Shown piece after piece: positions 16,960 to 56,618 of a stretch of DNA of 64,000 nucleotides. The stretch is taken from contig OZ024743.1 of NCBI GenBank assembly GCA_964016885.1, forward strand, positions 291,214,001 to 291,278,000. The letters are read 5' to 3'. Positions within the stretch are counted from its first letter, which is position 1. Every line of letters starts with the position of its first letter. Below the pieces are notes generated by a model. The model was given only the letters and a program-made list of their open reading frames with translations. It had not been told where the DNA came from and ran no database searches. Both the position numbers and the translations under genes were made by a program. Source of the stretch: Eledone cirrhosa (lineage: Eukaryota).

Positions 16960-17650
16960 TTAGAATTGGTACTCTGATATAGCGATATATATAAACATGT
17001 TTATATAGTGTATTTTGCAACACACAGTATGCTTAATTAAAAGCATTTGAAACAATAGCGTAAGATCTTCAAGATGCTTTTAATTAAGCATACAGTGTAT
17101 TGCAAAATACACTATATATACATTCATCTATATATCGCTATTTCAGTGCACCAATTCTAATTTTCAATTTTTGCTGGACCGGCAACTGCTCTGTATAATC
17201 AGTTCCTGAATATTACTGGAATTCTATAAGAATCCAACATTCATAATTTTTAGGAGGGAAAACGAGTACTAAGCTCTGAGGAGTACCAACAGTACGAAAC
17301 AGAGATCTGTCAGCTTATCTCCCTTTGTTTGCTGAAAAAAGAAGTAAAGGTCTTCAAAATACTTTTAATTAAGCATACATTGTATTGCAAAATACACTAT
17401 ATATACATATATATATATATATCGCTATTTCAGAGGACCAATTCTAATGTTCAATGTTTGCTGGACAGGGAACTGCTGTCTATAATTAGTTCCTGCTTAT
17501 TACTGGGATTCTATAAGAATCCAACATTCATCATTTTCAGCAGGCAAAGGGAGTGCTAAGTAAGTGACATAGTCACTACTTTGTAACAATAGCGTAAGGT
17601 GTTCAAAATGCTTTTAATTAAGCATACATTGTATTGCCAAATACACTATA
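16960..17650 (+). repeat. ~285-bp HHR-bearing repeat (family F1): short inverted copy plus partial tandem copies
   Basis: ttttaattaagcataca...aaatacactatatat recurs at ~17078, ~17363 and ~17612, and inverted at 16960-17048. Confidence 0.8.
17270..17317 (+). ncRNA. type I hammerhead ribozyme F1 (canonical, GUC site after 17311)
   Basis: TAAGCT-CTGAGGA-GTAC(CAACA)GTAC-GAAA-CAGAGATCTG-TC-AGCTTA; all three helices pair and the core matches consensus. Confidence 0.93.
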
Positions 17651-17972: not shown

Positions 17973-18651
17973 CTATTCTCAGCTAAGTCTCCAGGCAATG
18001 CGCGGACACTGGCGGCTCATATAAAAATAATAATAATTCGGTAGATAGAACAGCTGGTGAGGACTGGATTCCATGTACTGAAATTCTCACTGCTTCTAGT
18101 CAAATGGCCGATTCTAAAGAATCAATCACGTGACACAGAGGCTAGTTAGAAGGAATGGGATGGTAAGATGACTGACGCCTACTAACACGCCAAAAAATTT
18201 AGAAGTGGTTTTGGCAGGTTTGCTCGACAAATCAGTGATTTGGAGGTAAATATAGATAATTTAATATATCAACTAACATAAGCGCACAGATGCACGTCCA
18301 TGCCAGCAAATACACAGGTTATGTCATAGTACCTAGGTGGTTCAATGCAGGAGGATGCAGAACAATAATATAAAAGACGTAACATAAGAAAAATATTTTT
18401 TTTTTAAATTTTTTACCACTTCTAAATTTTTTGGGGTGTTAGTAGGCGTCAGTCATCTTACCATCCCATTCCTTCTAACTAGCCTATGTGTCACGTGATT
18501 GATTCTTTAGAATCGGCCATTTGACTAGAAGCAGTGAGAATTTCATTACATGGAATCCAGTCCTCGCCAGCTGTTCTATCTACCGAATTATTATTATTTT
18601 TATATGAGCCGCCAGTGTCCGCGCATTGCCTGGAGACTTAGCTGAGAATAG

Positions 18652-18733
18652 ACTCCCTGATGACGCAATGAATTCTCGACAGTTGGATTGCGTAACCATC
18701 TTTATCCCATTGCAGAAACTAATTAGTTGGAGT
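18652..18733 (+). ncRNA. type I hammerhead F2 (distal stem II hairpin partly mutated)
   Basis: same motif; AACTGTC reads AACCATC here. Confidence 0.8.
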
Positions 18734-19205
18734 GAAAATTTAAGTAAGTAAGTAAAAAATGTTTAAAAAATCTTTTTTAAAAATATTTTCTTGTTTTACG
18801 TCTTTTATATTATTGTTCTGCATCCTCCTGCATTGAACCACCTAGGTACTATGACATAACCTGTGTATTTGCTGGCATGGACGTGCATCTGTGCGTTTAT
18901 GTTAGTTGATATATTAAATTATCTATATTTATCTCCAAATCACTGATTTGTCGAGCAAACCTGCCAAAACCACTTCTAAATTGTTTGGCGTGTTAGTACG
19001 CGTCAGTCATCTTACCATCCCATTCCTTCTAACTAGCCTCTGTGTCACGTGATTGATTCTTTAGAATCGGCCATTTGACTAGAAGCAGTGAGAATTTCAG
19101 TACATGGAATCCAGTCCTCACCAGCTGTTCTATCTACCGAATTATTATTATTTTTATATGAGCCGCCAGTGTCCGCGCATTGCCTGGAGACTTAGCTGAG
19201 AATAG

Positions 19206-19287
19206 ACTCCCTGATGACGCAATGAATTCTCGACAGTTGGATTGCGTAACTGTCTTTATCCCATTGCAGAAACTAATTAGTTGGAGT
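19206..19287 (+). ncRNA. type I hammerhead F2
   Basis: same motif, intact. Confidence 0.85.
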
Positions 19288-19472
19288 GAAAATTTAAGTA
19301 AGTAAGTAAACAATTTTTTAAAAATTTTTTAAAAAGTATTTTCTTATTTTACGTTTTTTATATTATTGTTCTGCATCCTCCTGCATTGAACCACCTAGGT
19401 ACTATGACATAACCTGTGTATTTGCTGGCATGGACGTGCATCTGTGCGCTTATGTTAGTTGATATATTAAAT

Positions 19473-19549
<77 letters not shown>

Positions 19550-19735
19550 TTATTAATACAATAACAGAGATAGCTTAACGCTAAACTCCGACTGGTAACC
19601 ATCTCACTCAACAAACATTAGGTTATATGTTAGTATAACCCAATTTAAGTGTTTGGAGTGCTAACTATATGTATCTTGTGGAAAGCCAGTTGTATTATTT
19701 TATGAGATATAATTAAAGTTAAAATATATCTCTCT

Positions 19736-25059: not shown

Positions 25060-27585
25060 TAAAAAAGAAAACACAGGTAAGCATTAAGAGAAGGATTTAA
25101 TCCAGGTATTTACACCCGTTTCATTGGTAAGTGCAACCTTATATTGCTATACTGCAAATAGCAGCCACTCAATTATAATTGTTGTTCACAGTCCAAATTT
25201 TCAAAATAGTGAGTAAGTAACTCTTCAAATAATTCTTAATATATAGAGAAAAACATTTATTTGGAATTGTATTTACTAGTATAGAGAGAGAGAGGAATCA
25301 GAAGGTGAGGGGAAAAACGGAATAGTATAGAGAGAGAGAGGAAGGGGGAGGAGTTAGGAAGTAGAGTGACACACTGAGATGGAGGGAGGGGTAGAGGTGG
25401 AAGGATTCCTTGATCAGTTTTGATATTTAGACTCCATGTCGTGGAATGTAGTTAGTTAAAGAGAATTAAATTGATCATAGTGGAAGGGATGGAGAGAGAA
25501 AGAGAGGGGGGATATATAAAGAGATAAATATATATATAAAAAATAAAGATAAAGATAATAATGACAACAATAAAAGCAAAGAACAGGGAAGAAAGAAGAA
25601 AAGAAAAGATAGTTAAGAAGGGAAGGAAAGGAAGGAAGAAAACGAAGAAATAGAAGAGGAATGAAGGAGAAGGGGGATATAGGTTTTGGTTTTTGTGGGT
25701 AATTAAAAGGGTTTAGATACAATACGAGGGTATAAAGTCTAAGTAGATGCAGTTTGTCAGTTGGTAGAAAGAGGTTAAGGGTTCGATTTGCAGTTGTAGT
25801 GCGAAAACTTCTCTTTGAGTCTATGGTTACAATAAATTGATATTTCGATTTTATTGTTGAGTAACTTATTCTTCGAACTCAAGATGTGGTACAGCTCAGG
25901 GTCGCATAATCGACAGCTTCTCATACCACTCCGATATGGGGGCGCGTTCGATAATTTGTTCCACTTCAGGGTGTATTGATGGTTACTTTCACTCAGTTGC
26001 CAGGTCTTGTTTGCAAGGATAGTTACATAATGATGCTGGGAATGTTTCATTGCGTAACGGTGTGTATACCAACGGGCTTTAAATGTATTCCCAGTCACTC
26101 CGATGTAATACCATTTCTGGTTGTCTGATTCCACTGTGCATTGGTAAACCAAGTTGACTGCATACATTCATTATGTAATGGACAGGTTTCAGATAGGTCG
26201 CAGTTACAATTCTTGTCATGGGCAACTTTGGCATTATTGGTGGGCTGCGATACCTGTACAAGTGCGTGTGTTTCCAGAGTTTGTGTTATGCGTGTCCGTG
26301 TGGGCTTTACGGAGGCTCTCTTCTATATATTCTACTCTGTCTAAGTGGCCTGCTTTGTCTAATGCGGTATTGTAGTATTCTGCATGTTCTTTGAAGAATT
26401 GTCGGTTAGACGAGGCGGGAGATCCTAAGGGATATGCTGCGTTGAATGGATTTAATTATGGATAGTGGGTGGTTTGAGTTACAGTTGATGTATGCTAAGT
26501 TTTAATTAATCTTGTGAATAAGTCCCGTATTTAGGTTAAGCGTCGCGTCTAGAAAGTTAACTGTTTTAGTGCTATATTCATACGTTATTCCAAGGCCTAG
26601 TTTCCCCAAAAGTCTTTGTAATATTCTTACGGAGTCTTTCTATGCTCTGGTTATTTAGGTTCTTAACTAGGAGAAGGGCATTGTCTCTGTAGATTCCACC
26701 GTGAAGGTCGCTAAACTCACTCTGTAAACTATGGGCTATGTAAATAACTACTAAATCTGTGACTTGAGCCGAGTCGCTGGCCCCCCATCGTGATGTAAAA
26801 GTTATTTAATCTATCCTTACGTTCCGAATAGGCGTTTTCAAATGTAATCATTTTTTTCCTGAGAGCTAATATGATTTTTATCTCGTCGTCTGTTATGTCA
26901 GAATTGGCTTTGGCGAATGCTAAGTCTTTATCCAATGTGTTGGGGGATATAGATGAGTAATAATCGTTAATGTCAAATTGTATAAATTTAGACACTTCTT
27001 TGTTAGCTATATTGTTACACCATTTAATTGCTTCGGTAGTGTTACCCCATAGATTAATCACTAGTTTATTCTTCATTTGTTCTATCACTCTGTCTAATAT
27101 ATGTTTACTAATTTTCCCGATGTCCGATTTGGACGGGCATATAAGTCTAATTGTGGGGTTATAATCAACATTTACCTTGTGGTCCTTGAGAGTACATATG
27201 GGGGTACATGGCCTAAGTGGCTCCGTTCTGTCGTCTATTCCTAGGTGTTTGACTATGTTGTGTGCCTTGTTTTTTATGTTTATCACTGCCGCCTCATTAA
27301 TTTTTTTTGTATTTCCTATGTAATTCCTTCCGTATGAAGCTATTGTATGTATTAACATCCATCGTATACACATGTGATGTTTTGTCCGCTTTGACAATAA
27401 TACTATTGGTGGTTCGCAGCTTTTTTAGGAATGTATTTATGTCATACTCGAGTTTATTATTCCGCCACTTTTTTAATTTGATATTCATAATCATCTTCAG
27501 TAAGTCCTGTTCAAAGGTATCCTGTTGAGTGTTGGTAGGTGGGTTCTTACACGATTTGAAGTCGTATGTTTCCTTGTTGTATTCC
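25058..27585 (-). mobile_element. Naiad-type PLE family A, decayed copy 1
   Basis: ORFs 27297-27587, 26729-27397 (TLKDHK, IRLICPSKSDIG, QFDINDYYSSI, ITMG) and 25775-26167 (LVYQC..YYIG..FKARW..H..CRLC..LLN..CNH); catalytic motif reads YRDN; purine-rich 3' UTR 25058-25774. Confidence 0.9.
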
Positions 27586-27640
27586 ACGGTGCGACCATTA
27601 CGTCCTTTGTCGAAAGGCTACAAAATAAATTCCCAAATAC

Positions 27641-31151: not shown

Positions 31152-31562
<411 letters not shown>

Positions 31563-31610
31563 AGTAATTAAGTCAAATATTTAAAATTTGGCCTCGTTTA
31601 TTAAAGATGT

Positions 31611-31665
31611 ACTGCTATATATATTTCGGTGACAGCCATCATTGTCTGTGACCTCTTCAGGCAGT
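31611..31665 (-). ncRNA. type I hammerhead F5 (AUA site), core intact
   Basis: ACTGC-CTGAAGA-GGTCACAGACA(ATGA)TGGCTGTCACC-GAAA-TATATA-TA-GCAGT. Confidence 0.87.
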
Positions 31666-31891
31666 CCGAATTGGTGAGGTAGAGACAGGTAGACATTGTG
31701 TTAAAGTGTTTTACTCCGTCAATACTCCGATATATCAAGCTCCTGGTTGGGTTGTTATTTCTCTGAGGAACTGAAATCATATGATATCGTTCTTCAGAGA
31801 AATAACAACCCAACCAGGAGCTGGACATATCGGAGTGTTGACGGATTAAAAGACTTTAACATGTGTACCTGTCTCTACCGTACACATTTGG

Positions 31892-31946
31892 ACTGCCTGA
31901 ATAGGTCACAGCCAATGATGGCTGTCACCGAAATATATATAGCAGT
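31892..31946 (+). ncRNA. hammerhead F5 with core mutation G8U (CTGAATA), probably inactive
   Basis: ACTGC-CTGAATA-GGTCACAGCCA(ATGA)TGGCTGTCACC-GAAA-TATATATA-GCAGT. Confidence 0.75.
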
Positions 31947-32093
31947 ACATCTTTAATATACCAAGCCAAATTTAAATTATTTGACTTAATTACTTTATTT
32001 TACATTATTCCGGAGTAACCAAACCAACCTGTGTACTTCGTCGAGTGCTCCAATATGTTTACAGAGTTGTCGGTAAACAGCCAACATATACTC

Positions 32094-32156
<63 letters not shown>

Positions 32157-35914: not shown

Positions 35915-38356
35915 TTAATTAGGTTTATAATATTTAAATGTTTTTTTTAGTTTATGATTACACGATATAATTAATTCCTGTCGTTTATTTAATAGGATAT
36001 CCTTAGATTTCATTATTTCAAATAGTTCTTGGGAACATAATCTACATTCATTTCTATTATTTTGATAAGGGGTGGCTCTTTTGAGCACACTCCAGGTCAA
36101 ATCATATTCTATATTCTTATTTTTATAACTATTGATTTTTTCTGCTAGAGATGTTGTATTAGCCAGTGCGGCATTTTCAAAACTATGCTTGTGGGTATTA
36201 AACCTTGTCTTAAAATTGTTAGAAGTAGCTCCTATATATGAGCAAATAGAATCTTTAGTTTTAACATTACATTTATAGACTATGTTGTTAACAAGACAAT
36301 TCCCTTTTAATGGGCAGTTTGCTTTGTTTCTACAGTTACAACCTTTCGTTAATTCTGTATTTGAGGAGATATTATGGTTAATTTGATGTACTGGTGGTAT
36401 ACTTATGGTTTTCTTACATTTATATGCATTATAGGCACTTATATTTTGTTTTATGTTATTTGTTGTTGAGTATGAGAATTTAACTGTAGACCTATTTAAG
36501 ATTTGATGGTATTTGTGGTTTGGCGGGAAGTTTTTCTCTAGGATATAACAAAATTTTTTAGCAATATTATCCTTAATTTGTAAATTAAATGGAGCATTAT
36601 ACCAAGTAACCCGTCTATTACGGTTTCTATGTTGTTTATTATTTTTATTATTTTTATATGTTGTATCGTGATGTTTACTAGGAGGATTAATGTTAATGAT
36701 CTCACCACAACCATTTTTAGTTATATTTGTAGATTTAGGTGTTTTATCTTTTTTATTAGGAGTTTTATTATTAATATTTATTAGAGTTGTATGATGAGTA
36801 GTTTTTTGAGAGTTACTATATTTTATATTAGAAGATTTGGTATTTTGGGGTATAGTGTGGGTGGCATTTAGGTGTGTACTTTTCATTTGGTGTTTGTTGG
36901 TAATATTAGGTTGTATGCTTTTAGTATTTTTAGTAGAAGGTATATATTCTAATCTATTTTTGTGGCCACTTCTATCTAGAGCTTCGTTATAGAAGGTCGC
37001 ATTTTTATCAAATACATCTTGGTTAGAAGAAAGGTTAGAAATTCTAAGTGATATATTATATGCAAGGTTTTTAAGGATAGATTTAGGGTGATTAGATTGT
37101 GAGTGTATGTAATGTAAGTTTTGGTTTGGTTTATGGTAAGGTTGGTAGATACCCGTAGCTAAATCTAAAGTTATATCTAGGAAATTTACTACTTTACTTG
37201 TTTTTTCAAAAGTAATATGAAGATTATAATAGTCTTTAAGGAAAGTTCTAATATGTTTTTTGTTTTTTTCAATTTCTGAAAGGCTAAGGTTGTTAGAAAG
37301 AAGAAGACAGTCATCACGATATAAACCACCTTTGAGGTGGGGAAAGGAGGCATTTATGTTGAAAAGGAGAAAGAGGCCCACAAGATCAGTAATTTGGGCG
37401 GAATCGCTTGAACCCATAGTAATATCAAATAGATTACTATATGTGTTTCTGGTCCAGTATTCATTCTGAAATTCAATAAGTGTTAGTCTAGCATGTGTAA
37501 TAATATTAATGTCATCCAAAGTTAAGTTAGATCTATTTTTAGCAAATATCAATGCTTTGTTCAGGAGTATAGGTGATATAGAAGAATAGTAATTATCTAT
37601 ATCAAATTGTAGAAATGAAGCAGAAGATTTACATCTAATATTTTTAAACCAGTTAATTACCTGGGAGGTGTTTTCCCAGAGTGGTAAAATAACGTGTTTT
37701 CTTATTTGTGGGATGACTCTATCCAAAATTTTTTTGCTAATTATTCCAATATCTGATTTGGAGGGACATATAAGTCTTATAGAAGGATTTGAGTTAAAGT
37801 TTGATTTATGATCCTACAGGTTGAAGTGTGGTCTTTTCAATGCCAAAGGTTCAGTTCTATCTTCAATGTTTAGTTTTTTTACTATGTTGTGTGTTTTGTT
37901 GTTGATGTTGGTGAGTGACGCATTATTAGATTTTTTATAATTTTTTCTGAGTTCTTTATATATGAACTCATTATAATGTTCAATATCCATATGATACAAG
38001 TTACCAGTTTTGTCCGAGTGGACATGGATTTTTTTAGACTTTTTTAGGTCCAATAGGGTAGAATCAAGGTCCTTTTGAAAGACGGATTTATACTTTTTAA
38101 ATTTGAGGTGTTTAATTAAATTAAAAAGGTCTTTCTCGAAGTCTTCAAGTAAAAAGTTGTGTGGTGGATTCTTGTAAGTATTGAAATCATACATATATTT
38201 CCGATCTGCTTGTTTAGATTTTTTATCGAAGTGGTAGGCTCTCCATCTAACCCTTCTGATAAAATTATTAGTTTTTTGAATCATAAGGAGTAAGAAGTCA
38301 TCCTTAGAAGGTATTGGTATGTTTTTTAAAGAGGTTCCCAAATATTGTTTTTCCAT
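35915..38356 (-). pseudogene. Naiad-type RT + GIY-YIG ORF (~813 codons) interrupted by one in-frame TAG at 37814-37816
   Basis: ORFs 37814-38377 and 35915-37726 are in the same frame, joined by L*DHKSNFNSNPSIRLICPSKSDIG; QFDIDNYYSSI, ITMGSSDSAQ, GLYRDD, CNCRNKANCPLKGNC, IVY-YIG, CRLC..CNH. Confidence 0.93.
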
Positions 38357-42529: not shown

Positions 42530-43032
42530 TTACTTAATGGTATCAGTTTTAGGAAATGATATTTGTAAGAAGGAGAACCAAATTATGTAGTTCATCATTA
42601 GTAGAATATTAATTATAGGTTAACTAAAATAAAAATAGTTTATATCTAAATTTCTAAGGTGTATATTAATTAGGTTTATCATATTTAAAGCAGAATTATG
42701 TAGTTCATCAGTAGTAGAATATTAATTATAGGTTAACTAAATTAAAAATAATTATATATGTTTACTTAATGGTATCAGTTTTAGGAAATGATATTTGTAG
42801 AAGGAAAGCCAAATTATGTAGTTCATCAGTAGTAGAATATTAATTATATGTTAACTAAATTAAAAATAGTTCATATATTAATTTCTAAAGTGTATATTAA
42901 TTAGGTTTATAATATTTAAAGCAGAATTTTGTAATTCATCTGTAGTAGAATATTAATTATAGGTTAACTAAATTAAAATTAATTTATATATTAATTTCTA
43001 AAGTGTATATTAATTAGGTTTATAATATTTAA
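42530..43032. repeat. ~120-bp imperfect tandem repeat covering the Naiad stop codon and proximal 3' UTR
   Basis: gtagtagaatattaattataggttaactaaattaaaa recurs 4 times; degenerate counterpart at ~34960-35915. Confidence 0.8.
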
Positions 43033-44160
43033 ATGTTTTTCTCAGTTTATGATTACACGATATTATTAATTCCTGTCACTTATTTAATAGGATATCCTTA
43101 GATTTCATTATTTCGAAAAGTTCTTGGGAACACAATCTACATTCATTTCTACTATTTTGATAAGGGATGGCCCTTTTGAGCACACTCCAGGTCAGGTCAT
43201 ATTCTATATTCCTCTTTCTATAACTATTAATTTTTTCAGCTAGAAATGTTGTATTAGCTAGTGCGGCATTTTTAAAACTATGTTTGTGGGTATTAAATCT
43301 TACCTTAAAATTGTTAGTGGTAGCTCCTATATATGAATAAATAGAGTCCTTAGTGTTAACTTTACATTTATATATTATGTTATTAACAAGGCAATTTCCT
43401 TTTAATCGACAGTTTGCCTTGTTTCTACAGTTATAACTTTTCGTGAGTCCTGTATCTGAGGAGATATTATGGTTAGTTTGATGTACTGCTGGTATACTTA
43501 TGTTTTTTTTAACATTTATATGCATTATAGGCACTTATATTTTGTTTTATGTTTTTGGTTGTTGAGTAGGAGAATTTAACTGTTGATCTATTTAAGATTT
43601 GATGGTATTTGTGGTTTGGCGGGAATTTTTTCTCTAGGATATTAAAGAATTATTTAGGTATATTATCCTTAACTTGTAAATTAAATGGAGCATTATACCA
43701 AGTAACCCGTCTATTACGGTTTCTATGTTTTTATTGTTTTTATAGGATGCATCCTGATGTTTACTAGGAGAATTATTGTTAATGACCTCTCCACACACAT
43801 TTTTAGTTAGATTTATTGATTTAGGTGTTTTAGCTTGTTTATTAGGAGTTTTATTATTAACATTTATTAGAGTTGTAGGATGAGTAGTTTTTTGAGAGTT
43901 ACTATACTGTATATTAGAAGAGTTAGAGAAAATTGGTTTTATGTTGGTATTTTGGGGTATAGTGTGAGTGGCATTTAGGTGTGTACGTTTCATTTGGTGT
44001 TTGTTGGTAATATTAGGTTGTATGTTTGTAGTATTATTGGTAGAAGATATATATATTAATCTATTTTTGTGGCCACTTCTAGCTAGAGCTTCGTTATAAA
44101 AGGTCGCATTTTTATCAAATACATCTTGTCGCATTTTTATCAAATACATCTTGGTTAGAC

Positions 44161-44220
44161 GAAGCTATAACGAAGCTATAACGAAGCTATAACGAAGCTA
44201 TAACGAAGCTATAACGAAGC
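44161..44220. repeat. (GAAGCTATAAC)x5 at the inversion junction
   Basis: direct reading. Confidence 0.95.
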
Positions 44221-45468
44221 TCTAGCTAGAAGTGGCCACAACAATAGATTAATATATATACCTTCTACCAATAATACTACAAACATACAACCTAATATTA
44301 CCAACAAACACCAAATGAAACGTACACACCTAAATGCCACTCACACTATACCCCAAAATACCAACATAAAACCAATTTTCTCTAACTCTTCTAATATACA
44401 GTATAGTAACTCTCAAAAAACTACTCATCCTACAACTCTAATAAATGTTAATAATAAAACTCCTAATAAACAAGCTAAAACACCTAAATCAATAAATCTA
44501 ACTAAATATGTGTGTGGAGAGGTCATTAACAATAATTCTCCTAGTAAACATCAGGATGCATCCTATAAAAACAATAAACAACATAGAAACCGTAATAGAC
44601 GGGTTACTTGGTATAATGCTCCATTTAATTTACAAGTTAAGGATAATATACCTAAATAATTCTTTAATATCCTAGAGAAAAACTTCCCGCCAAACCACAA
44701 ATACCATCAAATCATAAATAGATCAACAGTTAAATTCTCCTACTCAACAACCAAAAACATAAAACAAAATATAAGTGCCTATAATGCATATAGATGTTAA
44801 AAAAACCATAAGTATACCAGCAGTACATCAAACTAACCATAATATCTCCTCAGATACAGGACTCACGAAAAGTTATAAATGTAGAAACAAGGCAAACTGT
44901 CGATTAAAAGGAAATTGCCTTGTTAATAACATAATATATAAATGTAAAGTTAACACTAAGGACTCTATTTATTCATATATAGGAGCTACCACTAACAGTT
45001 TTAAGGTAAGATTTAATACCCACAAACATAGTTTTAAAAATGCCGCACTAGCTAATACAACATCTCTAGCTGAAAAAATTAATAGTTATAGAAAGAGGAA
45101 TATAGAATATGACCTGACCTGGAGTGTGCTCAAAAGGGCCACCCCTTATCAAAATAGTAGAAATGAATGTAGATTGTGTTCCCAAGAACGTTTCGAAATA
45201 AGGAAATCTAAGGATATCCTATTAAATAACCGACAGTAATTAATAATATCGTGTAATCATAAACTGAGATAAACATTTAAATATTATAAACCTAATTAAT
45301 ATATTTACTATTTCCCACTAATAAATTTAATCCCCCCCCCCAATAATGATATGTATATGTAAGTGTGTATGTATGTATGTGTGTATGTATGTGAGTGTAA
45401 AAATATATATATATGTATGTATATATATATATATATATGTGTGTATATGTGTGTGTATGTGTGTATGA

Positions 45469-47030: not shown

Positions 47031-47092
<62 letters not shown>

Positions 47093-47098
<6 letters not shown>

Positions 47099-47581
47099 GA
47101 AAACACAGGTAAGCATCAAGAGAAGGATTTTATCCAGGTATTTACGAATGTCTCATTGGCAAGTGCAACCTGATATTGCTATACTGCAAATAGCAGCCAC
47201 TCAATTATAATTATTGTTCACGTCCAAATTTTCAAAATAGTGAGTAAGTTACTCTTGAAATAGTTCTTAATTTATATAGAAAAACATTTTTTGGGAATTG
47301 TATTTACTAGTATAGAGAGAGAGTAAGAGGAATTAAGGGGACAACCGGAATATCAAGGGGACAACCGGAATAGTATAGAGAGAGAGGAAGGGGCAGAAGA
47401 GTTAGAAGTTTAGAAATAGAGTGACAAACTGAGATGGAAGGAGGGGTAGAGGTGGAAGGATTCCTTGATCAGTTTTGATATGTAGACTCCATGTCGTGGA
47501 ATGTAGTGAGTTAAAGAGAATTAAATTTATCATAGTGGGAGGGATGGAGAGAGAGAGAGAGAGAAAGAGAGAGTGACAGAC

Positions 47582-47617
<36 letters not shown>

Positions 47618-50290
47618 GGGGGAGATATAAAAAGATAAATATATATATAAAAATAAAGATAAAGATAATAATGACAAAAATAAAAGCAAAGAAGGGGGAG
47701 AAAGAAGGACATAAAAGATAGCCAAAAAAGGGGAGGGAAGGAAGGAAGAAAACGAATAGAAGAGGAATGAAGGATAAGTGAGGGATAAAGGTATTGGTTT
47801 TTGTGGGTAATTAAAAGGATTTAGATACAATAAGATGGTATAAAGTCTAAGTATAAGCAGTTTGTCAGTTGGTAGTAAGAGGTTAAGGGTTCGATTTGAA
47901 CTTGTAGTGCGAAAACTTTTCTTTGAGTCTATGGTTTCAATAAATTGATCTTTCGATGTTATTGTTGAGTAACTTATTCTTCGAACTCAAATTGTGGAAC
48001 AGCTCAAGGTTACATAATCGACAGCTTATCATACCTTTCTGATACGGGGGCGCGTTCGATAATTTTTTTCCACTTCAGGGTGTATTGATGGTTACTTTCA
48101 CTCAGTTGCCAGGTCTTGTTTGCAAGGGTAGTTACATAACGATTCTGGGAATGTTTCATTGCGTAACGGTGTGTATACCAACGGGCTTTAAATGTATTCC
48201 CAGTCGATCAGATGTAATACCATTTCTGGTTTTCTGATTCCAGTGTGCATTGGTAAACCAGGTTAGACTGCATACATTCATTATGTAATGGACAGGTTTC
48301 ATGTAGGTCGCAGTTACAATTCTTGTCATGGGCAACTTTGGCATTATTGGTGGGCTGCGATGCCTGTACAAGTGCGTGTGTTACGTTTTGTTTGCCTTTT
48401 AGTGGGTGGTTGTGTATTAGATATGATGTTGTGTTCAATGGCGATTGTATTGTTATTGTTGTAAATTTGTGTTCTGTTGTTGTTATGTATCTTTTTAGCA
48501 TTAAGCATCTTAATGTGTGCCTCTATATGTGTTGCCGTGGAGTAAGATAGTCAAATATATTTAGTGTTATGGATTTTGCTGTATCTATGTGAATCTGGAA
48601 AGTGCTTATTTATTATTCTAAAGAAGGTAGAGGGTACGTTAATACTAATAGAGTTTTTAAATATGGGGTTATACCAAATATATTTTCTAATGCGTGACTT
48701 GTTTGATTTCGATGTTGTATTTCTATTTACCGTATACTTTGTAGTTCTATGTGTAAGTGCGTGTGTGCGCTTTGCGGAGGCTTTCATCTATATATTCTAC
48801 TCTATCTAAGTGGCCTGCCTTGTCTAATGCGGTATTGTAGTATTCTGCAGGTTCCTCGAAAATTTGTCGGTTAGGCGAGAGGCAGCAGATCCTAAGGGAT
48901 ATGCTGCGTGGAACGGATTTAATTATGGATAGTGGGTGGTTTCAGTTACAGTTGATGTATGTTAAGTTTTCATTAATCTTGTGAAAAGGTCTTATATTTA
49001 GGTTAAGCGTCGCGTCTAGAAAGTTCACTGTTTTAGTGCTATACGCATACGTTATGCTAAGGCCTAGTTTCCTGAGAGTCTTTCTAATATTCTTACAGAG
49101 TCGTTCTATGCTCTGGTTATTTAGGTTCTTAACTAGGAGAAGGGCGTCGCTAAACTCACTCTGTAAACTATGGGCTATGTAAATACCTACTAAATCTGTG
49201 ACTTGAGCCGATTCATTAGCCCCCATCGTGATGTCAAGTTATTTAATCTATCCTTACGTTCCCAATAGGCGTTTTCAAATTTAATTATTGTTTACCTAGC
49301 AGCTAACATGATTTTTATCTCGTCGTCTGTTAGGTCAGAATTGAATTTGGCGAATGCTAAGGCTTTATCCGAGGTGTTGGGTGATATAGAGGAGTTATAG
49401 TCGTTAATGTCAAATTGTATAAATTTAAAGCGGTCAAAACCTCAAATGTGTATGCGATTGATGTTAATACATACAATAGCTTCCTACGGAAATAATTACA
49501 TAGGAAATACGAAAAAACTAATGAGGCGGCACTGATAAACATCACCAATGAGGCACACAATATAGTCAAACACCTAGGAATAGACGACAGAACTTAGGCC
49601 ATGTACCCCCACATTTAATTTCAAGGACCATAAGGTAAATTTTGATTATAACCCCACAATTAGGCTTATATTCCCGTCCAAATCGGACATTGGGAAAATT
49701 AGTAAACATATATTAGACAGAATGATAGCACAAATGAAGAATAAAATAGTGATTAAACTATGGGATAACGCTACCGAAACAATTAAGTGGTTTAACAATA
49801 TAGCTAACAAAAAAGTATCTAAATTCATACAATTTGACATTAACGACTATTACTCCTCCATATCCCCCCAACACCTTGGATAAAGCCTTAGCATTCGCCA
49901 AAGCCAATTCTGACCAAACAGACGACGAGATGAAAATCATATTAACTGCTAGGAAAACAATAATTAAATTTGAAAACGCCTATTGGTAACGTAAGGATAG
50001 ATTAAATAACTTTGACATCACGATGGGGGCTAACGACTCGGCTCAAGTCACAGATTTAGTAGGTATTTACATAAACCATAGTTTACAGAGTGAGTTTAGC
50101 GACCTTCACGGTGGAATCTACAGAGACGTCGCCCTTCTCCTAATTAAGAACCTAAATAACCGGAGCATAGATAGACTCCGGAAGAATATTAGAATAACTC
50201 TCGGGAAACTAGGCCTCAGCATAACGTATGCGTATAGCATTAACACAGTTAACTTTCTAGACGCGACGCTTAACCTAAATACGGGACTTG
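47093..50290. mobile_element. Naiad-type family A copy 2 (- strand 47093-~49428) with inverted RT segment (+ strand ~49429-50290)
   Basis: 3' UTR homologous to 25058-25774; ORFs 48208-48501, 48551-48787, 48942-49226 (YRDD region deleted) and 50023-50307 (YRDV). Confidence 0.9.
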
Positions 50291-50439
50291 GTTTGTTATA
50301 TCTCTGAAGAACTCGTATCATATGATTCCAGTTCCTCAGAGAAATAACAACCCAACCAGGAGCTGGACATATCGGAGTATTGACGGAGTAAAACACTTTA
50401 ACAAAATGTGTACAAGTCTCTACCACAGCAATTCGGACT

Positions 50440-50493
50440 CTGCCTAAAGAGGTCACAGCCAATGATGGCTGTCACCGAAATATATATAGCAGT
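50440..50493 (+). ncRNA. hammerhead F5 with core mutation G5A (CTAAAGA), probably inactive, in a single-arm copy (~50293-50548)
   Basis: CTGC-CTAAAGA-GGTCACAGCCA(ATGA)TGGCTGTCACC-GAAA-TATATATA-GCAGT. Confidence 0.75.
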
Positions 50494-50635
50494 ACATCTT
50501 TAATAAACGAAGCAAAATGTTTAATATTTGACTTAATTACTATATTCTATATACTATCAATAATAATGAGTTCAACACTCAGGCAGTCTTTTACAATGAA
50601 ATAGCTCAAAGTAAGAAGTATTTCTGTGCCGTGTA

Positions 50636-50977: not shown

Positions 50978-51019
<42 letters not shown>

Positions 51020-51023
<4 letters not shown>

Positions 51024-54000
51024 TAATTTAATATATCAACTAACATAGGCGCACAGATGCACGTCCATGCCAGCAAATACACAGGTTATGTCATAGTACC
51101 TAGGTGGTTCAATGCAGGAGGGTGCAGAACAATAATATAAAAGACGTAAAATAAGAAAATATTTTTTAAAAAAATTTTTTAAAAAATTTTTTACTTACTT
51201 ACTTAAATTTTCACTCCAACTAATTAGTTTCTGCAATGGGATAAAGACAGTTACATAATCCAACTGTCGAGAATTCATTGCGTCATCAGGGAGTCTATTC
51301 TCAGCTGAGCCTCCAGGCAATGCGCGGACACTAGCGGCTCATATAAAAATAATAATTCGGTAGAAAGAACAGCTAGGCGAGGACTGGATTCTATGTACTG
51401 AAATTCTCACTGCTTCCAGTCAAATGCCCGATTCTAAAGAATCAATCACGTGACATAGAGGCTAGTTAGAAGGAATGGGATGGTAAGATGATTGACGCCT
51501 ACTAACACCCCAAAAAAAATTTTGAAGTGGTTTTGGCAGGTTTGCTCGACAAATCAGTGATTTGGAGATAAATATAGATAATTTAATATATCAACTAACA
51601 TAGGCGCACAGATGTACGTCCATGCCAGCAAATACACAGGTTATGTCATAGTACCTAGGTGGTTCAATGCAGGAGGGTGCAGAACAATAATATAAAAGAC
51701 GTAAAATAAGAAAATATTTTTTAAAAAAATTTTTTTAAAAATTTTTTACTCACTTACTTAAATTTTCACTCCAACTAATTAGTTTCTGCAATGGGATAAA
51801 GACAGTTACATAATCCAACTGTCGAGAATTCATTGCGTCATCAGGGAGTCTATTCTCAGCTGAGCCTCCAGGCAATGCGCGGACACTAGCGGCTCATATA
51901 AAAATAATAATTCGGTAGAAAGAACAGCTAGGCGAGGACTGGATTCTATGTACTGAAATTCTCACTGCTTCCAGTCAAATGCCCGATTCTAAAGAATCAA
52001 TCACGTGACATAGAGGCTAGTTAGAAGGAATGGGATGGTAAGATGATTGACGCCTACTAACACCCCAAAAAAAATTTTGAAGTGGTTTTGGCAGGTTTGC
52101 TCGACAAATCAGTGATTTGGAGATAAATATAGATAATTTAATATATCAACTAACATAGGCGCACAGATGCACGTCCATGCCAGCAAATACACAGGTTATG
52201 TCATAGTACCTAGGTGGTTCAATGCAGGAGGGTGCAGAACAATAATATAAAAGACGTAAAATAAGAAAATATTTTTTTAAAAAATTTTTTTAAAAATTTT
52301 TTACTTACTTAAATTTTCACTCCAACTAATTAGTTTCTGCAATGGGATAAAGACAGTTACATAATCCAACTGTCGAGAATTCATTGCGTCATCAGGGAGT
52401 CTATTCTTTAGATTCTTTAGAATCGGACATTTGACTGGAAGCAGTGAGAATTTCAGTACATAGAATCCAGTCCTCGCCTAGCTGTTCTTTCTACCGAATT
52501 ATTATTTTTATATGAGCCGCTAGTGTCCGCGCATTGCCTGGAGGCTCAGCTGAGAATAGACTCCCTGATGACGCAATGAATTCTCGACAGTTGGATTATG
52601 TAACTGTCTTTATCCCATTGCAGAAACTAATTAGTTGGAGTGAAAATTTAAGTAAGTAAGTAAAAAACTTTTTAAAAAATTGTTTTTAAAAATATTTTCT
52701 TATTTTACGTCTTTTATATTATTGTTCTGCACCCTGCTGCATTGAACCACCTAGGTACTATGACATAACCTGTGTATTTGCTGGCATGGACGTGCATCTG
52801 TGCGCCTATGTTAGTTGATATATTAAATTATCTATATTTATCTCCAAATCACTGATTTGTCGAGCAAACCTGCCAAAACCACTTCAAAATTTTTTTTGGG
52901 GTGTTAGTAGGCGTCAGTCATCTTACCATCCCATTCCTTCTAACTAGCCTCTATGTCACGTGATTGATTCTTTAGAATCGGACATTTGACTGGAAGCAGT
53001 GAGAATTTCAGTACATAGAATCCAGTCCTCGCCTAGCTGTTCTTTCTACCGAATTATTATTTTTATATGAGCCGCTAGTGTCCGAGCATTTCTTGGAGGC
53101 TCAGCTGAGAATAGACTCCCTGATGACGCAATGAATTCTCGACAGTTGGATTATGTAACTGTCTTTATCCCATTGCAGAAACTAATTAGTTGGAGTGAAA
53201 ATTTAAGTAAGTAAGTAAAAAATTTTTTAAAAAATTTTTTAAAAAATTTTTTAAAAAAATATTTTCTTATTTTACGTCTTTTATATTATTGTTCTGCACC
53301 CTCCTGCATTGAACCACCTAGGTACTATGACATAACCTGTGTATTTGCTGGCATGGACGTGCATCTGTGCGCCTATGTTAGTTGATATATTAAATTATCT
53401 ATATTTATCTCCAAATCACTGATTTGTCGAGCAAACCTGCCAAAACCACTTCAAAATTTTTTTTGGGGTGTTAGTAGGCGTCAGTCATCTTACCATCCCA
53501 TTCCTTCTAACTAGCCTCTATGTCACGTGATTGATTCTTTAGAATCGGACATTTGACTGGAAGCAGTGAGAATTTCAGTACATAGAATCCAGTCCTCGCC
53601 TAGCTGTTCTTTCTACCGAATTATTATTTTTATATGAGCCGCTAGTGTCCGCGCATTGCCTGGAGGCTCAGCTGAGAATAGACTCCCTGATGACGCAATG
53701 AATTCTCGACAGTTGGATTATGTAACTGTCTTTATCCCATTGCAGAAACTAATTAGTTGGAGTGAAAATTTAAGTAAGTAAGTAAAAAACTTTTTTAAAA
53801 ATTTTTTAAAAAAATATTTTCTTATTTTACGTCTTTTATATTATTGTTCTGCACCCTCCTGCATTGAACCACCTAGGTACTATGACATAACCTGTGTATT
53901 TGCTGGCATGGACGTGCATCTGTGCGCCTATGTTAGTTGATATATTAAATTATCTATATTTATCTCCAAATCACTGATTTGTCGAGCAAACCTGCCAAAA

Positions 54001-56618
54001 CCACTTCAAAATTTTTTTTTGGGTGTTAGTAGGCGTCAGTCATCTTACCATCCCATTCCTTCTAACTAGCCTCTATGTCACGTGATTGATTCTTTAGAAT
54101 CGGACATTTGACTGGAAGCAGTGAGAATTTCAGTACATAGAATCCAGTCCTCGCCTAGCTGTTCTTTCTACCGAATTATTATTTTTATATGAGCCGCTAG
54201 TGTCCGCGCATTGCCTGGAGGCTCAGCTGAGAATAGACTCCCTGATGACGCAATGAATTCTCGACAGTTGGATTATGTAACTGTCTTTATCCCATTGCAG
54301 AAACTAATTAGTTGGAGTGAAAATTTAAGTAAGTAAGTAAAAAATCTTTTAAAAAATTTTTTTAAAAAATATTTTCTTATTTTACGTCTTTTATATTATT
54401 GTTCTGCACCCTCCTGCATTGAACCACCTAGGTACTATGACATAACCTGTGTATTTGCTGGCATGGACGTGCATCTGTGCGCCTATGTTAGTTGATATAT
54501 TAAATTATCTATATTTATCTCCAAATCACTGATTTGTCGAGCAAACCTGCCAAAACCACTTCAAAATTTTTTTTGGGGTGTTAGTAGGCGTCAGTCATCT
54601 TACCATCCCATTCCTTCTAACTAGCCTCTATGTCACGTGATTGATTCTTTAGAATCGGACATTTGACTGGAAGCAGTGAGAATTTCAGTACATAGAATCC
54701 AGTCCTCGCCTAGCTGTTCTTTCTACCGAATTATTATTTTTATATGAGCCGCTAGTGTCCGCGCATTGCCTGGAGGCTCAGCTGAGAATAGACTCCCTGA
54801 TGACGCAATGAATTCTCGACAGTTGGATTATGTAACTGTCTTTATCCCATTGCAGAAACTAATTAGTTGGAGTGAAAATTTAAGTAAGTAAGTAAACAAT
54901 TTTTTAAAAAAGTTTTTTAAAAAATATTTTCTTATTTTACGTCTTTTATATTATTGTTCTGCACCCTCCTGCATTGAACCACCTAGGTACTATGACATAA
55001 CCTGTGTATTTGCTGGCATGGACGTGCATCTGTGCGCCTATGTTAGTTGATATATTAAATTATCTATATTTATCTCCAAATCACTGATTTGTCGAGCAAA
55101 CCTGCCAAAACCACTTCAAAATTTTTTTGGGGGTGTTAGTAGGCGTCAGTCATCTTACCATCCCATTCCTTCTAACTAGCCTCTATGTCACGTGATTGAT
55201 TCTTTAGAATCGGACATTTGACTGGAAGCAGTGAGAATTTCAGTACATAGAATCCAGTCCTCGCCTAGCTGTTCTTTCTACCGAATTATTATTTTTATAT
55301 GAGCCGCTAGTGTCCGCGCATTTCCTGGAGGCTCAGCTGAGAATAGACTCCCTGATGACGCAATGAATTCTCGACAGTTGGATTATGTAACTGTCTTTAT
55401 CCCATTGCAGAAACTAATTAGTTGGAGTGAAAATTTAAGTAAGTAAGTAAAAAATTTTTTTAAAAATTTTTTAAAAAATTTTTTAAAAAAATATTTTCTT
55501 ATTTTACGTCTTTTATATTATTGTTCTGCACCCTCCTGCATTGAACCACCTAGGTACTATGACATAACCTGTGTATTTGCTGGCATGGACGTGCATCTGT
55601 GCGCCTATGTTAGTTGATATATTAAATTATCTATATTTATCTCCAAATCACTGATTTGTCGAGCAAACCTGCCAAAACCACTTCAAAATTTTTTTTGGGG
55701 TGTTAGTAGGCGTCAGTCATCTTACCATCCCATTCCTTCTAACTAGCCTCTATGTCACGTGATTGATTCTTTAGAATCGGACATTTGACTGGAAGCAGTG
55801 AGAATTTCAGTACATAGAATCCAGTCCTCGCCTAGCTGTTCTTTCTACCGAATTATTATTTTTATATGAGCCGCTAGTGTCCGCGCATTGCCTGGAGGCT
55901 CAGCTGAGAATAGACTCCCTGATGACGCAATGAATTCTCGACAGTTGGATTATGTAACTGTCTTTATCCCATTGCAGAAACTAATTAGTTGGAGTGAAAA
56001 TTTAAGTAAGTAAGTAAAAATTTTTTTTTAAAATTTTTTTAAAAAATATTTTCTTATTTTACGTCTTTTATATTATTGTTCTGCACCCTCCTGCATTGAA
56101 CCACCTAGGTACTATGACATAACCTGTGTATTTGCTGGCATGGACGTGCATCTGTGCGCCTATGTTAATTGATATATTAAATTATCTATATTTATCTCCA
56201 AATCACTGATTTGTCGAGCAAACCTGCCAAAACCACTTCAAAATTTTTTTTGGGGTGTTAGTAGGCGTCAGTCATCTTACCATCCCATTCCTTCTAACTA
56301 GCCTCTATGTCACGTGATTGATTCTTTAGAATCGGACATTTGACTGGAAGCAGTGAGAATTTCAGTACATAGAATCCAGTCCTCGCCTAGCTGTTCTTTC
56401 TACCGAATTATTATTTTTATATGAGCCGCTAGTGTCCGCGCATTGCCTGGAGGCTCAGCTGAGAATAGACTCCCTGATGACGCAATGAATTCTCGACAGT
56501 TGGATTATGTAACTGTCTTTATCCCATTGCAGAAACTAATTAGTTGGAGTGAAAATTTAAGTAAGTAAGTAAAAAATTTTTTAAAAAATTTTTTTAAAAA
56601 ATATTTTCTTATTTTACG

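What the first reader, a model, noticed from the sequence alone, without database searches (positions are those of the whole stretch)
31563..31994. F5: palindromic element whose ribozyme stem III is itself a TA microsatellite
GAAA-TATATATA-GCAGT uses (AT)4 as palindromic stem III and an AUA cleavage site, so the 5' cleavage product would end in ...AUAUAUAUA, complementary to the (TA)n target tracts (inference). One copy has an intact core; the others carry the classic inactivating changes G8U (31892) and G5A (50440).
Basis: partly seen in the sequence, partly recalled or inferred. Interest (0 to 1): 0.7.

Follow-up and report, generated by a model that had tools for sequence, protein, structure and literature searches.

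The report
Hydra Penelope end with AU hammerhead
This palindrome is the mirror-image pair of ends of a known kind of jumping gene (a Hydra-clade Penelope-like retroelement) with a predicted self-cutting RNA in each arm, and because its copies end about 60 or 160 bases past the predicted cut rather than at it, the AU-repeat stem likely pairs two ribozymes rather than priming on TA repeats.

Summary
In detail: a type I hammerhead with an ATATATAT stem III and AUA site; intact at 31665-31611(-), G8U at 31902, G5A at 50446. F5 (really 31558-32096) is a 5'-truncated, head-to-head pair of 3' ends (pLTRs) of a Hydra-clade Penelope-like element. Full copies read pLTR, RT plus GIY-YIG ORF, pLTR, in (TA)n; a sister subfamily keeps an intact 892-aa ORF. 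The priming idea fails its own test: 7,550 copies read through the cut, 12 run on in TA, and at most 4-6 of those end there unexplained. Copies end about +60 or +160 past the cut, one of each per insertion (16/17, 21/22, 13/14). The AT stem is shared by about 34,000 more hammerheads of sister families whose stems I and II covary. But ATATGTAT is as common in one branch, and an ATGCGCAT family also sits in (TA)n, so self-pairing is the likely constraint. Cleavage and expression are untested. The scan noted the two-ended pattern before in other Penelope-driven repeats of this genome. New member of a known kind; interest 0.3.

The parts
31454..31557 (.). Left target tract, (AT)n then (AG)n
   Evidence: 31454-31532, 31532-31558
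31558..31780 (-). Left arm: inverted, 5'-truncated 3' end of the element, ending at the short (S) terminus about 58 nt past the predicted cut
31611..31665 (-). Type I hammerhead, intact core CTGAAGA/GAAA; stem III ATATATAT at 31624-31617; predicted cut 31616|31615; private stem II change at 31645
31776..31785 (.). Self-complementary ATCATATGAT where the two arms meet; a junction hot spot of the family, about 165-169 nt upstream of the cut
   Evidence: 20 of 48 arms in 24 short insertions stop at -164 to -173
31781..32096 (+). Right arm: 3' end of the element, ending at the long (L) terminus about 155 nt past the predicted cut
31892..31946 (+). Type I hammerhead with G8U (31902); stem III 31933-31940; predicted cut 31941|31942
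32000..32096 (+). About 100-nt tail present on one arm only; holds a predicted hairpin (32007-32046) with GAGTGC invariant in 18 of 18 relatives picked for that motif
32097..32152 (.). Right target tract (AT)28
50288..50548 (+). Third copy, S-type arm; hammerhead 50440-50493 with G5A (50446); joined at its 5' side to an RT fragment of a different Hydra-like family

Best explanation
F5 is a 5'-truncated, head-to-head pair of the 3' ends of a Hydra-clade Penelope-like retroelement inserted in a (TA)n tract, likely made when the element's reverse transcriptase-endonuclease extended both sides of a cut in (TA)n from two internal start sites about 60 and 160 nt downstream of an uncut hammerhead, whose self-complementary stem III is predicted to pair with that of a second hammerhead. 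Shown: the link to the ORF, the (TA)n flanks, the two fixed ends, one of each per insertion, no ends at the cut, covariation of stems I and II. Inferred: both DNA ends prime (by analogy to the anole Poseidon protein, PMC11167929), the two cDNAs join near a palindrome at -165, and the ribozyme works only as a dimer or with protein help. The window's own copy is likely inert: one transcript across it carries one hammerhead and its antisense and is predicted to fold into one long hairpin.
For:: L033 reads (TA)n, inverted S arm, pLTR with this hammerhead, 5' UTR, RT frame, 3' UTR, pLTR, L end, (TA)n; the GIY-YIG frame runs into the 3' UTR that ends in F5; L130, L131, L134 hold pLTR-ORF-pLTR; intact 892-aa ORF in a sister subfamily, 86% identical over 370 aa, same stem III. 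Hydra motifs RWK, DKT, CxCX5C, CxxC, CxH are present. Ends: of 130 copies 65 S, 46 L, 12 read on into the 5' UTR, 4 other, 3 cut by the locus edge. One S plus one L in 16 of 17 position-picked insertions, 21 of 22 similarity-picked, 13 of 14 in sister families. 7,550 against 12 at the cut. 14 of 25 pairs change on both sides; 94% of cells paired against 82% shuffled and 31-47% slid. Stem III variants that reach family level stay self-pairing: ATATGTAT, ATGCGCAT. Cofolding two copies gives the double hammerhead with an 8-bp stem III.
Against: No cleavage assay, and no RNA data. The AUAUAUAU duplex is weak (-3.2 kcal/mol at 37 C, against -8 to -10 for two published Hydra stems and -3.6 for a third), and AUAUGUAU weaker still (-2.2), so dimer function may be poor. 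Rfam does not score the motif. Pfam finds no RT domain in P0001 or P0003 and only a sub-threshold GIY-YIG hit in P0002. Clade membership rests on motifs compared by eye, with no tree against the published proteins. Unit length is 4.0-4.3 kb against 'generally <3 kb' for Hydra. No intact ORF of F5's own subfamily was among the 20 long loci. The 130-copy tally required the sequence past the cut, so only searches test ends at the cut without that bias. The 18 relatives were picked by a pattern that fixes AT....AT-A, so their stem III columns are not independent evidence.
Confidence: 0.8

Rival explanations
1. One reading: the ribozyme cuts, and the 5' product ending in AUAUAUAUA pairs with a nicked (TA)n tract to start reverse transcription, which targets the element.
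For: The complementarity is real. The AT stem is kept in at least 42,000 hammerheads across families whose RTs are only about 50% identical. The common A-to-G variant could still wobble-pair with TA DNA. Four copies (L147-L150) end in a TA tract at stem III with no continuation found in 1.5 kb.
Against: Under 0.1% of copies end at the cut, and those can arise by deletion between two TA runs or by nested insertion, as L157 shows. ATGCGCAT and 25 published AC...GT families target (TA)n without the homology. In the anole element, hammerhead mutants insert normally in vitro and no reads end at the cut.
Confidence: 0.04
2. F5 is a distinct non-autonomous element (MITE-like palindrome or retrozyme) that replicates as its own unit.
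For: Most copies are short and non-coding, many are near-symmetric around one palindrome (6 of 24 short insertions have both arms at -164 to -173), and retrozymes are proposed to derive from pLTRs.
Against: Arm lengths vary from -27 to beyond 1 kb and continue into the autonomous 3' UTR and ORF. The two hammerheads are on opposite strands, not in tandem, and the fold buries the core.
Confidence: 0.08
3. The stem III sequence is kept because its DNA or RNA is read by the element's protein, for instance as a (TA)4 endonuclease site in the pLTR, rather than only for RNA pairing.
For: L157 is a copy split exactly in the (AT)4 by other TA-targeting elements, and L152 has a sister arm abutting it. 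The anole protein is proposed to nick its own pLTR. ATAT(A/G)TAT-A holds in 95 of 100 copies where stem II varies widely.
Against: Such splits are rare (1-3 of about 7,560). ATGCGCAT families work without it. Changes that spread keep RNA self-pairing.
Confidence: 0.08

Closest known systems
Hydra clade of C-terminal EN+ Penelope-like elements, e.g. Hydra-1_Obim (Craig et al. 2021, PMC8557442; passages, section 11, supplement parts 1, 2, 52 and search hits read)
   Same: One ORF, RT then GIY-YIG; RWK, DKT, CxCX5C, CxxC and CxH motifs; (TA)n target; canonical hammerhead near the 3' end; pLTR, inverted 5'-truncated copy and a tail at one end, as described for PLEs generally.
   Different: Stem III is ATATATAT-A (AT...AT), where all 25 listed Hydra families have AC...GT. 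Tail about 100 nt, not 30-40. Unit 4.0-4.3 kb with a 1.2-1.5 kb 3' UTR and an 892-aa ORF, not under 3 kb. The hammerhead differs from that of Hydra-1_Obim, so this is another family.
Poseidon element of the green anole, PAc (Frangieh et al. 2024, PMC11167929; parts 1-2 of 4 read, the whole main text)
   Same: Two fixed ends downstream of the hammerhead; no ends at the cut; AT-rich target; little homology at the start sites (2-3 nt of TA here).
   Different: Other clade; the two sites are adjacent there and about 100 nt apart here; there the ORF starts inside the hammerhead, here about 210 nt past the cut. PAc is tested in vitro, this family is not.
Metazoan PLE hammerheads with small palindromic helix III (Cervera and de la Pena 2014, PMC4209133; part 1 of 4 and passages read)
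   Same: Type I, short stem I, long stem II, palindromic helix III unstable as monomer, many single or opposite-strand copies from truncated PLEs.
   Different: Helix III here is all A-U and 8 nt; the passages read do not list such a sequence (figures and supplement not seen).
Animal non-LTR retrozymes (Li, Clavereau, Pollet 2026, 10.64898/2026.07.22.740005; part 1 of 5 read)
   Same: Type I hammerhead, non-coding copies, PLE origin.
   Different: Retrozymes are tandem same-strand arrays; F5 is an inverted pair continuous with an autonomous element.

Membership tests
Hydra-clade PLE | Single ORF with RT and C-terminal GIY-YIG endonuclease | tested here: met
   P0003, 892 aa, RT motifs then IVYG...YIG...FKDRWYNH; Pfam GIY-YIG E 0.0014 on P0002, below cut-off; no Pfam RT hit
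Hydra-clade PLE | RWK motif and DKG changed to DKT | tested here: met
   RRMRWKAF and ADKTNNLY in P0003, as in Hydra-1_Obim
Hydra-clade PLE | Linker CxCX5C; CxxC and CxH around the conserved E and N; no CCHH | tested here: met
   CNCRNPESC, CKLC, CRH in P0003, no CCHH pattern seen (criteria)
Hydra-clade PLE | No insertion-in-fingers domain | tested here: met
   RT3-to-RT4 spacing 64 residues against 65 in Hydra-1_Obim, counted by hand
Hydra-clade PLE | Insertion into (TA)n; canonical hammerhead near the 3' end | tested here: met
Hydra-clade PLE | Generally short (<3 kb); described as a tendency | tested here: not met
   cut-to-cut unit 4.0-4.3 kb in 5 copies and L165
Hydra-clade PLE | Groups with Hydra RTs in a phylogeny | not tested
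   the published proteins were seen only as text in a supplement; compared by eye
PLE (general) | pLTR partial tandem, inverted 5'-truncated copy, tail at one end | tested here: met
   L033, L130, L131, L141, L165
Type I hammerhead ribozyme | CUGANGA, GAAA, NUH and three helices with covariation | tested here: met
   helix III only as a dimer; no Rfam match
Type I hammerhead ribozyme | Self-cleavage | not testable with these tools
   needs an assay
Non-LTR retrozyme | Tandem same-strand units, each with a hammerhead, no coding partner in cis | tested here: not met
   opposite-strand arms, continuous with ORF-bearing copies
Naiad PLE | N-terminal endonuclease, CxC domain, IFD, no canonical hammerhead | tested here: not met
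   endonuclease is C-terminal, hammerhead canonical

The most novel reading that the evidence does not exclude
The near-invariant AU palindrome is a shared plug that lets hammerheads of two RNAs, even of different families, pair in trans and so loads two templates on one dimeric RT-endonuclease; one template starts at the short site and the other at the long site, which would explain the strict one-short-one-long rule and give PLE hammerheads a role that does not need cleavage before insertion.
Probability: 0.1. Interest if true: 0.7.

Novelty: new member of a known kind. Interest (0 to 1): 0.3.

Why it matters
What hammerheads do in Penelope-like elements is open. This family gives a genome-scale negative for one attractive answer: even with a perfect (TA)n match at the cut, under 0.1% of copies end there. 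It also offers a good test system: an intact 892-aa ORF, two start sites 100 nt apart that obey a one-of-each rule, a conserved tail hairpin, and natural stem III variants across tens of thousands of copies. The F5 locus itself is an ordinary, probably dead insertion.

Tried and rejected
Rfam: no hammerhead match; the E-value hits are miRNA-hairpin models scoring the palindrome, all below their gathering scores. Sequencing runs: no RNA holder listed; no reads laid. Pfam on the RT: nothing. First relaxed hammerhead scan missed all copies through a regex flaw and was replaced. 5' ends at the cut joined to TA: 3 hits, 2 expansions and 1 candidate, L159. Transcription start at -168 as the cause of the junction hot spot: considered, not favoured, since 5' pLTRs start anywhere from beyond -260 to +178. 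The window's Hydra-like RT at 47.0-50.3 kb as F5's parent: rejected, only 35-51% identical to P0003 and with a different 3' end. L155 was mis-parsed (expanded stem) and dropped before alignment A1, where the window's right arm was added. No protein tree was built. No protein database, structure or complex jobs were run. Literature searches found no paper on an all-AU stem III or this family; the library is open-access only, figures are not held, and the bioRxiv supplements were closed, so absence is weak. Lunse et al. 2017 on dimeric PLE hammerheads is recalled, not read. Earlier-findings look-ups by sequence, words and near place gave nothing.

Full report
Observation. The window holds an inverted repeat whose arms are 88.8% identical over 446 nt, and a third copy at 50288-50548. 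Each copy carries a type I hammerhead with stem III ATATATAT followed by A. The left arm (31665-31611, minus) has the intact core; the right arm has G8U at 31902 and the third copy G5A at 50446. The motif occurs once intact in the window against 0 in 100 shuffles. The element is longer than given: it runs from about 31558 to 32096, between (AT)n/(AG)n and (AT)28 tracts. Rfam does not score it as a hammerhead.

What it belongs to. A DNA search of the own genome (3.0 Gb, an animal; cephalopod-like is an inference, not tested) gave 1,294 candidates, 40 scored. Walking upstream through longer copies led through a 1.2-1.5 kb non-coding region into a GIY-YIG frame (L031). Walking downstream in L033 led from the same hammerhead through a short 5' UTR into an RT frame, then the 3' UTR and a second hammerhead, with an inverted arm in front and (TA)n on both sides. 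L130, L131 and L134 hold the whole pLTR-ORF-pLTR order with broken frames. A sister subfamily (pLTR about 82% identical, same stem III) has an intact 892-aa ORF, 86% identical over 370 aa. It has RWK, DKT, CxCX5C, CxxC and CxH, the marks of the Hydra clade, and is colinear by eye with Hydra-1_Obim. Pfam gave only a sub-threshold GIY-YIG hit, and no tree with published proteins was built. F5 is thus a 5'-truncated insertion with the inverted copy and one-sided tail described for PLEs.

Test of the priming idea. An exact 30-mer that reads through the cut has 7,550 matches; the same anchor followed by three more TA units has 12 (reversed controls 0). Of the 12, 5 are slippage expansions that read on, L157 is split in the (AT)4 by nested elements with the rest 538 nt further on, L152 has an inverted sister arm abutting, L146 is followed by the end of another family, and 4 (L147-L150) end in TA with nothing found in 1.5 kb. 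So under 0.1% end at the cut, and deletion or nested insertion explains these as well as priming. 5' ends show no footprint either: 0 of 30 ORF-bearing copies start at the cut, the nearest at -14 and +18, and 1 of 3 pattern hits starts there after a TA tract.

Where copies do end. Among 130 distinct copies in L001-L145, 65 end at about +41 to +68 (S; most +54 to +65), 46 at +152 to +164 (L), 12 read on into the 5' UTR, 4 end elsewhere and 3 were cut by the locus edge. This sample needed the sequence past the cut, so it describes the two classes but does not test ends at the cut. In 18 divergent pairs picked by position from the first 100 matches, the outer ends were one S and one L in 16, two L in 1, and undetermined in 1. 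Similarity-picked loci gave 21 of 22, sister families 13 of 14. Both ends share only 2-3 nt of TA with the target. In 24 short insertions, 20 of 48 arms stop at -164 to -173, at a small palindrome, as F5's do; local alignment can overrun a palindrome by a few bases. This matches the anole Poseidon protein, which cuts and extends both strands, starts at two internal sites that define the tail, inserts normally with a dead hammerhead, and shows no RNA ends at the cut. That both DNA ends primed here is inference. Earlier notes of this scan reached the same reading for non-coding repeats of this genome; I read them, and they are not independent support.

Is the AT stem special? It is widespread. 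A pattern that excludes F5's core finds 34,424 matches against 90 for the control, in families whose ORFs are about 50% identical to P0003. Across 18 relatives (43-88% identical) stems I and II covary: 14 of 25 pairs change on both sides, 94% of cells pair against 82% in shuffles and 31-47% when slid; relatedness inflates such counts, and the set was picked with AT....AT-A fixed. Anchored only downstream, one branch has 36,682 matches; of the first 100 listed, 48 have ATATATAT-A, 47 ATATGTAT-A and 5 single variants (hand count). On a tree of 64 copies built without stem III, ATATGTAT needs 5 changes, at least 4 forced by strong branches. A related family with the same stem I, tail motif, S/L ends and (TA)n flanks has ATGCGCAT. 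All 25 Hydra families in the published table have AC...GT stems, and 24 of them are listed as (TA)n-targeting. Self-pairing therefore fits all variants; a match to the target does not.

How the ribozyme likely works. Stem III costs energy in a monomer, while cofolding two copies gives the double hammerhead with an 8-bp stem, the arrangement proposed for metazoan PLE hammerheads, which cleave poorly in vitro. The AU duplex is weak (-3.2 kcal/mol at 37 C, -5.7 at 20 C), so activity may need the two pLTRs of one transcript or protein help. In F5 itself the two hammerheads lie on opposite strands, and a read-through RNA is predicted to form one hairpin of about -300 kcal/mol that pairs most of the core. 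Core positions vary among copies about as much as stem positions, so G8U and G5A look like decay after insertion. G5 and G8 as essential bases is established knowledge, partly seen. Cleavage and expression are untested.

Verdict. Real hammerhead, known kind of element, priming refuted as the main route. New in detail: an AU-stem branch of Hydra elements with at least 42,000 hammerheads in one genome, a 100-nt tail with a conserved hairpin, and a counted one-short-one-long rule. Searches found no description of this branch, within an open-access library without figures. Interest 0.3; the novel case (stem III couples two templates) has probability 0.1.

Noticed in passing
window 47090-50548: A different Hydra-like family (35-51% identical to P0003, broken frames, minus arm to about 47090, inverted RT fragment 49413-50289) is joined directly to an F5 S-type arm: a possible two-family chimeric insertion or a nested one. 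No canonical hammerhead was found at that family's 3' end. Second copy at about 25060-27614.
   Followed up: partly
window 35936-38356 (-), partial copies 43031-45278: Another Hydra-like ORF, 38% identical to P0003 over residues 1-886, with 113-bp repeats downstream; no canonical hammerhead found by the scan.
   Followed up: no
window 17270-17314 (+); 22675, 23124 (-), 23466 (+): Other type I hammerheads: one with a 12-nt palindromic stem III, three of an ACTAGT-type family.
   Followed up: no
window 32007-32049; alignment A1 columns 144-183: The tail between the S and L ends holds a predicted hairpin with GAGTGC in all 18 relatives (picked for that motif); the S end lies a few bases 5' of it. 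Candidate protein-binding or start signal.
   Followed up: partly
The same A-to-G change in stem III (ATATGTAT) arises or reverts at least 4-5 times in sister families. Selection for G-U pairing or RNA editing fixed by retrotransposition; not distinguished.
   Followed up: partly
L157 (G000:C26:14758294-14761323), L152: The (AT)4 of stem III acts as a DNA target: a copy is split there by nested TA-targeting elements.
   Followed up: yes
L179, L180: Tail-to-tail pairs in which one copy's end abuts another's across a short TA run, suggesting insertion into an earlier insertion's flank.
   Followed up: no
L229:3090-6162: Two-armed tandem array of 310-nt units, each with an ACGCGT-stem hammerhead; fits earlier notes on this genome.
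   Followed up: no
G000: The endonuclease query drew 54,921 first-look candidates (150 scored), so Hydra-type elements are a major repeat class here.
   Followed up: no
window 51013-56600: Array of 555-bp units in two opposed arms, with related pieces at 18247-19561.
   Followed up: no
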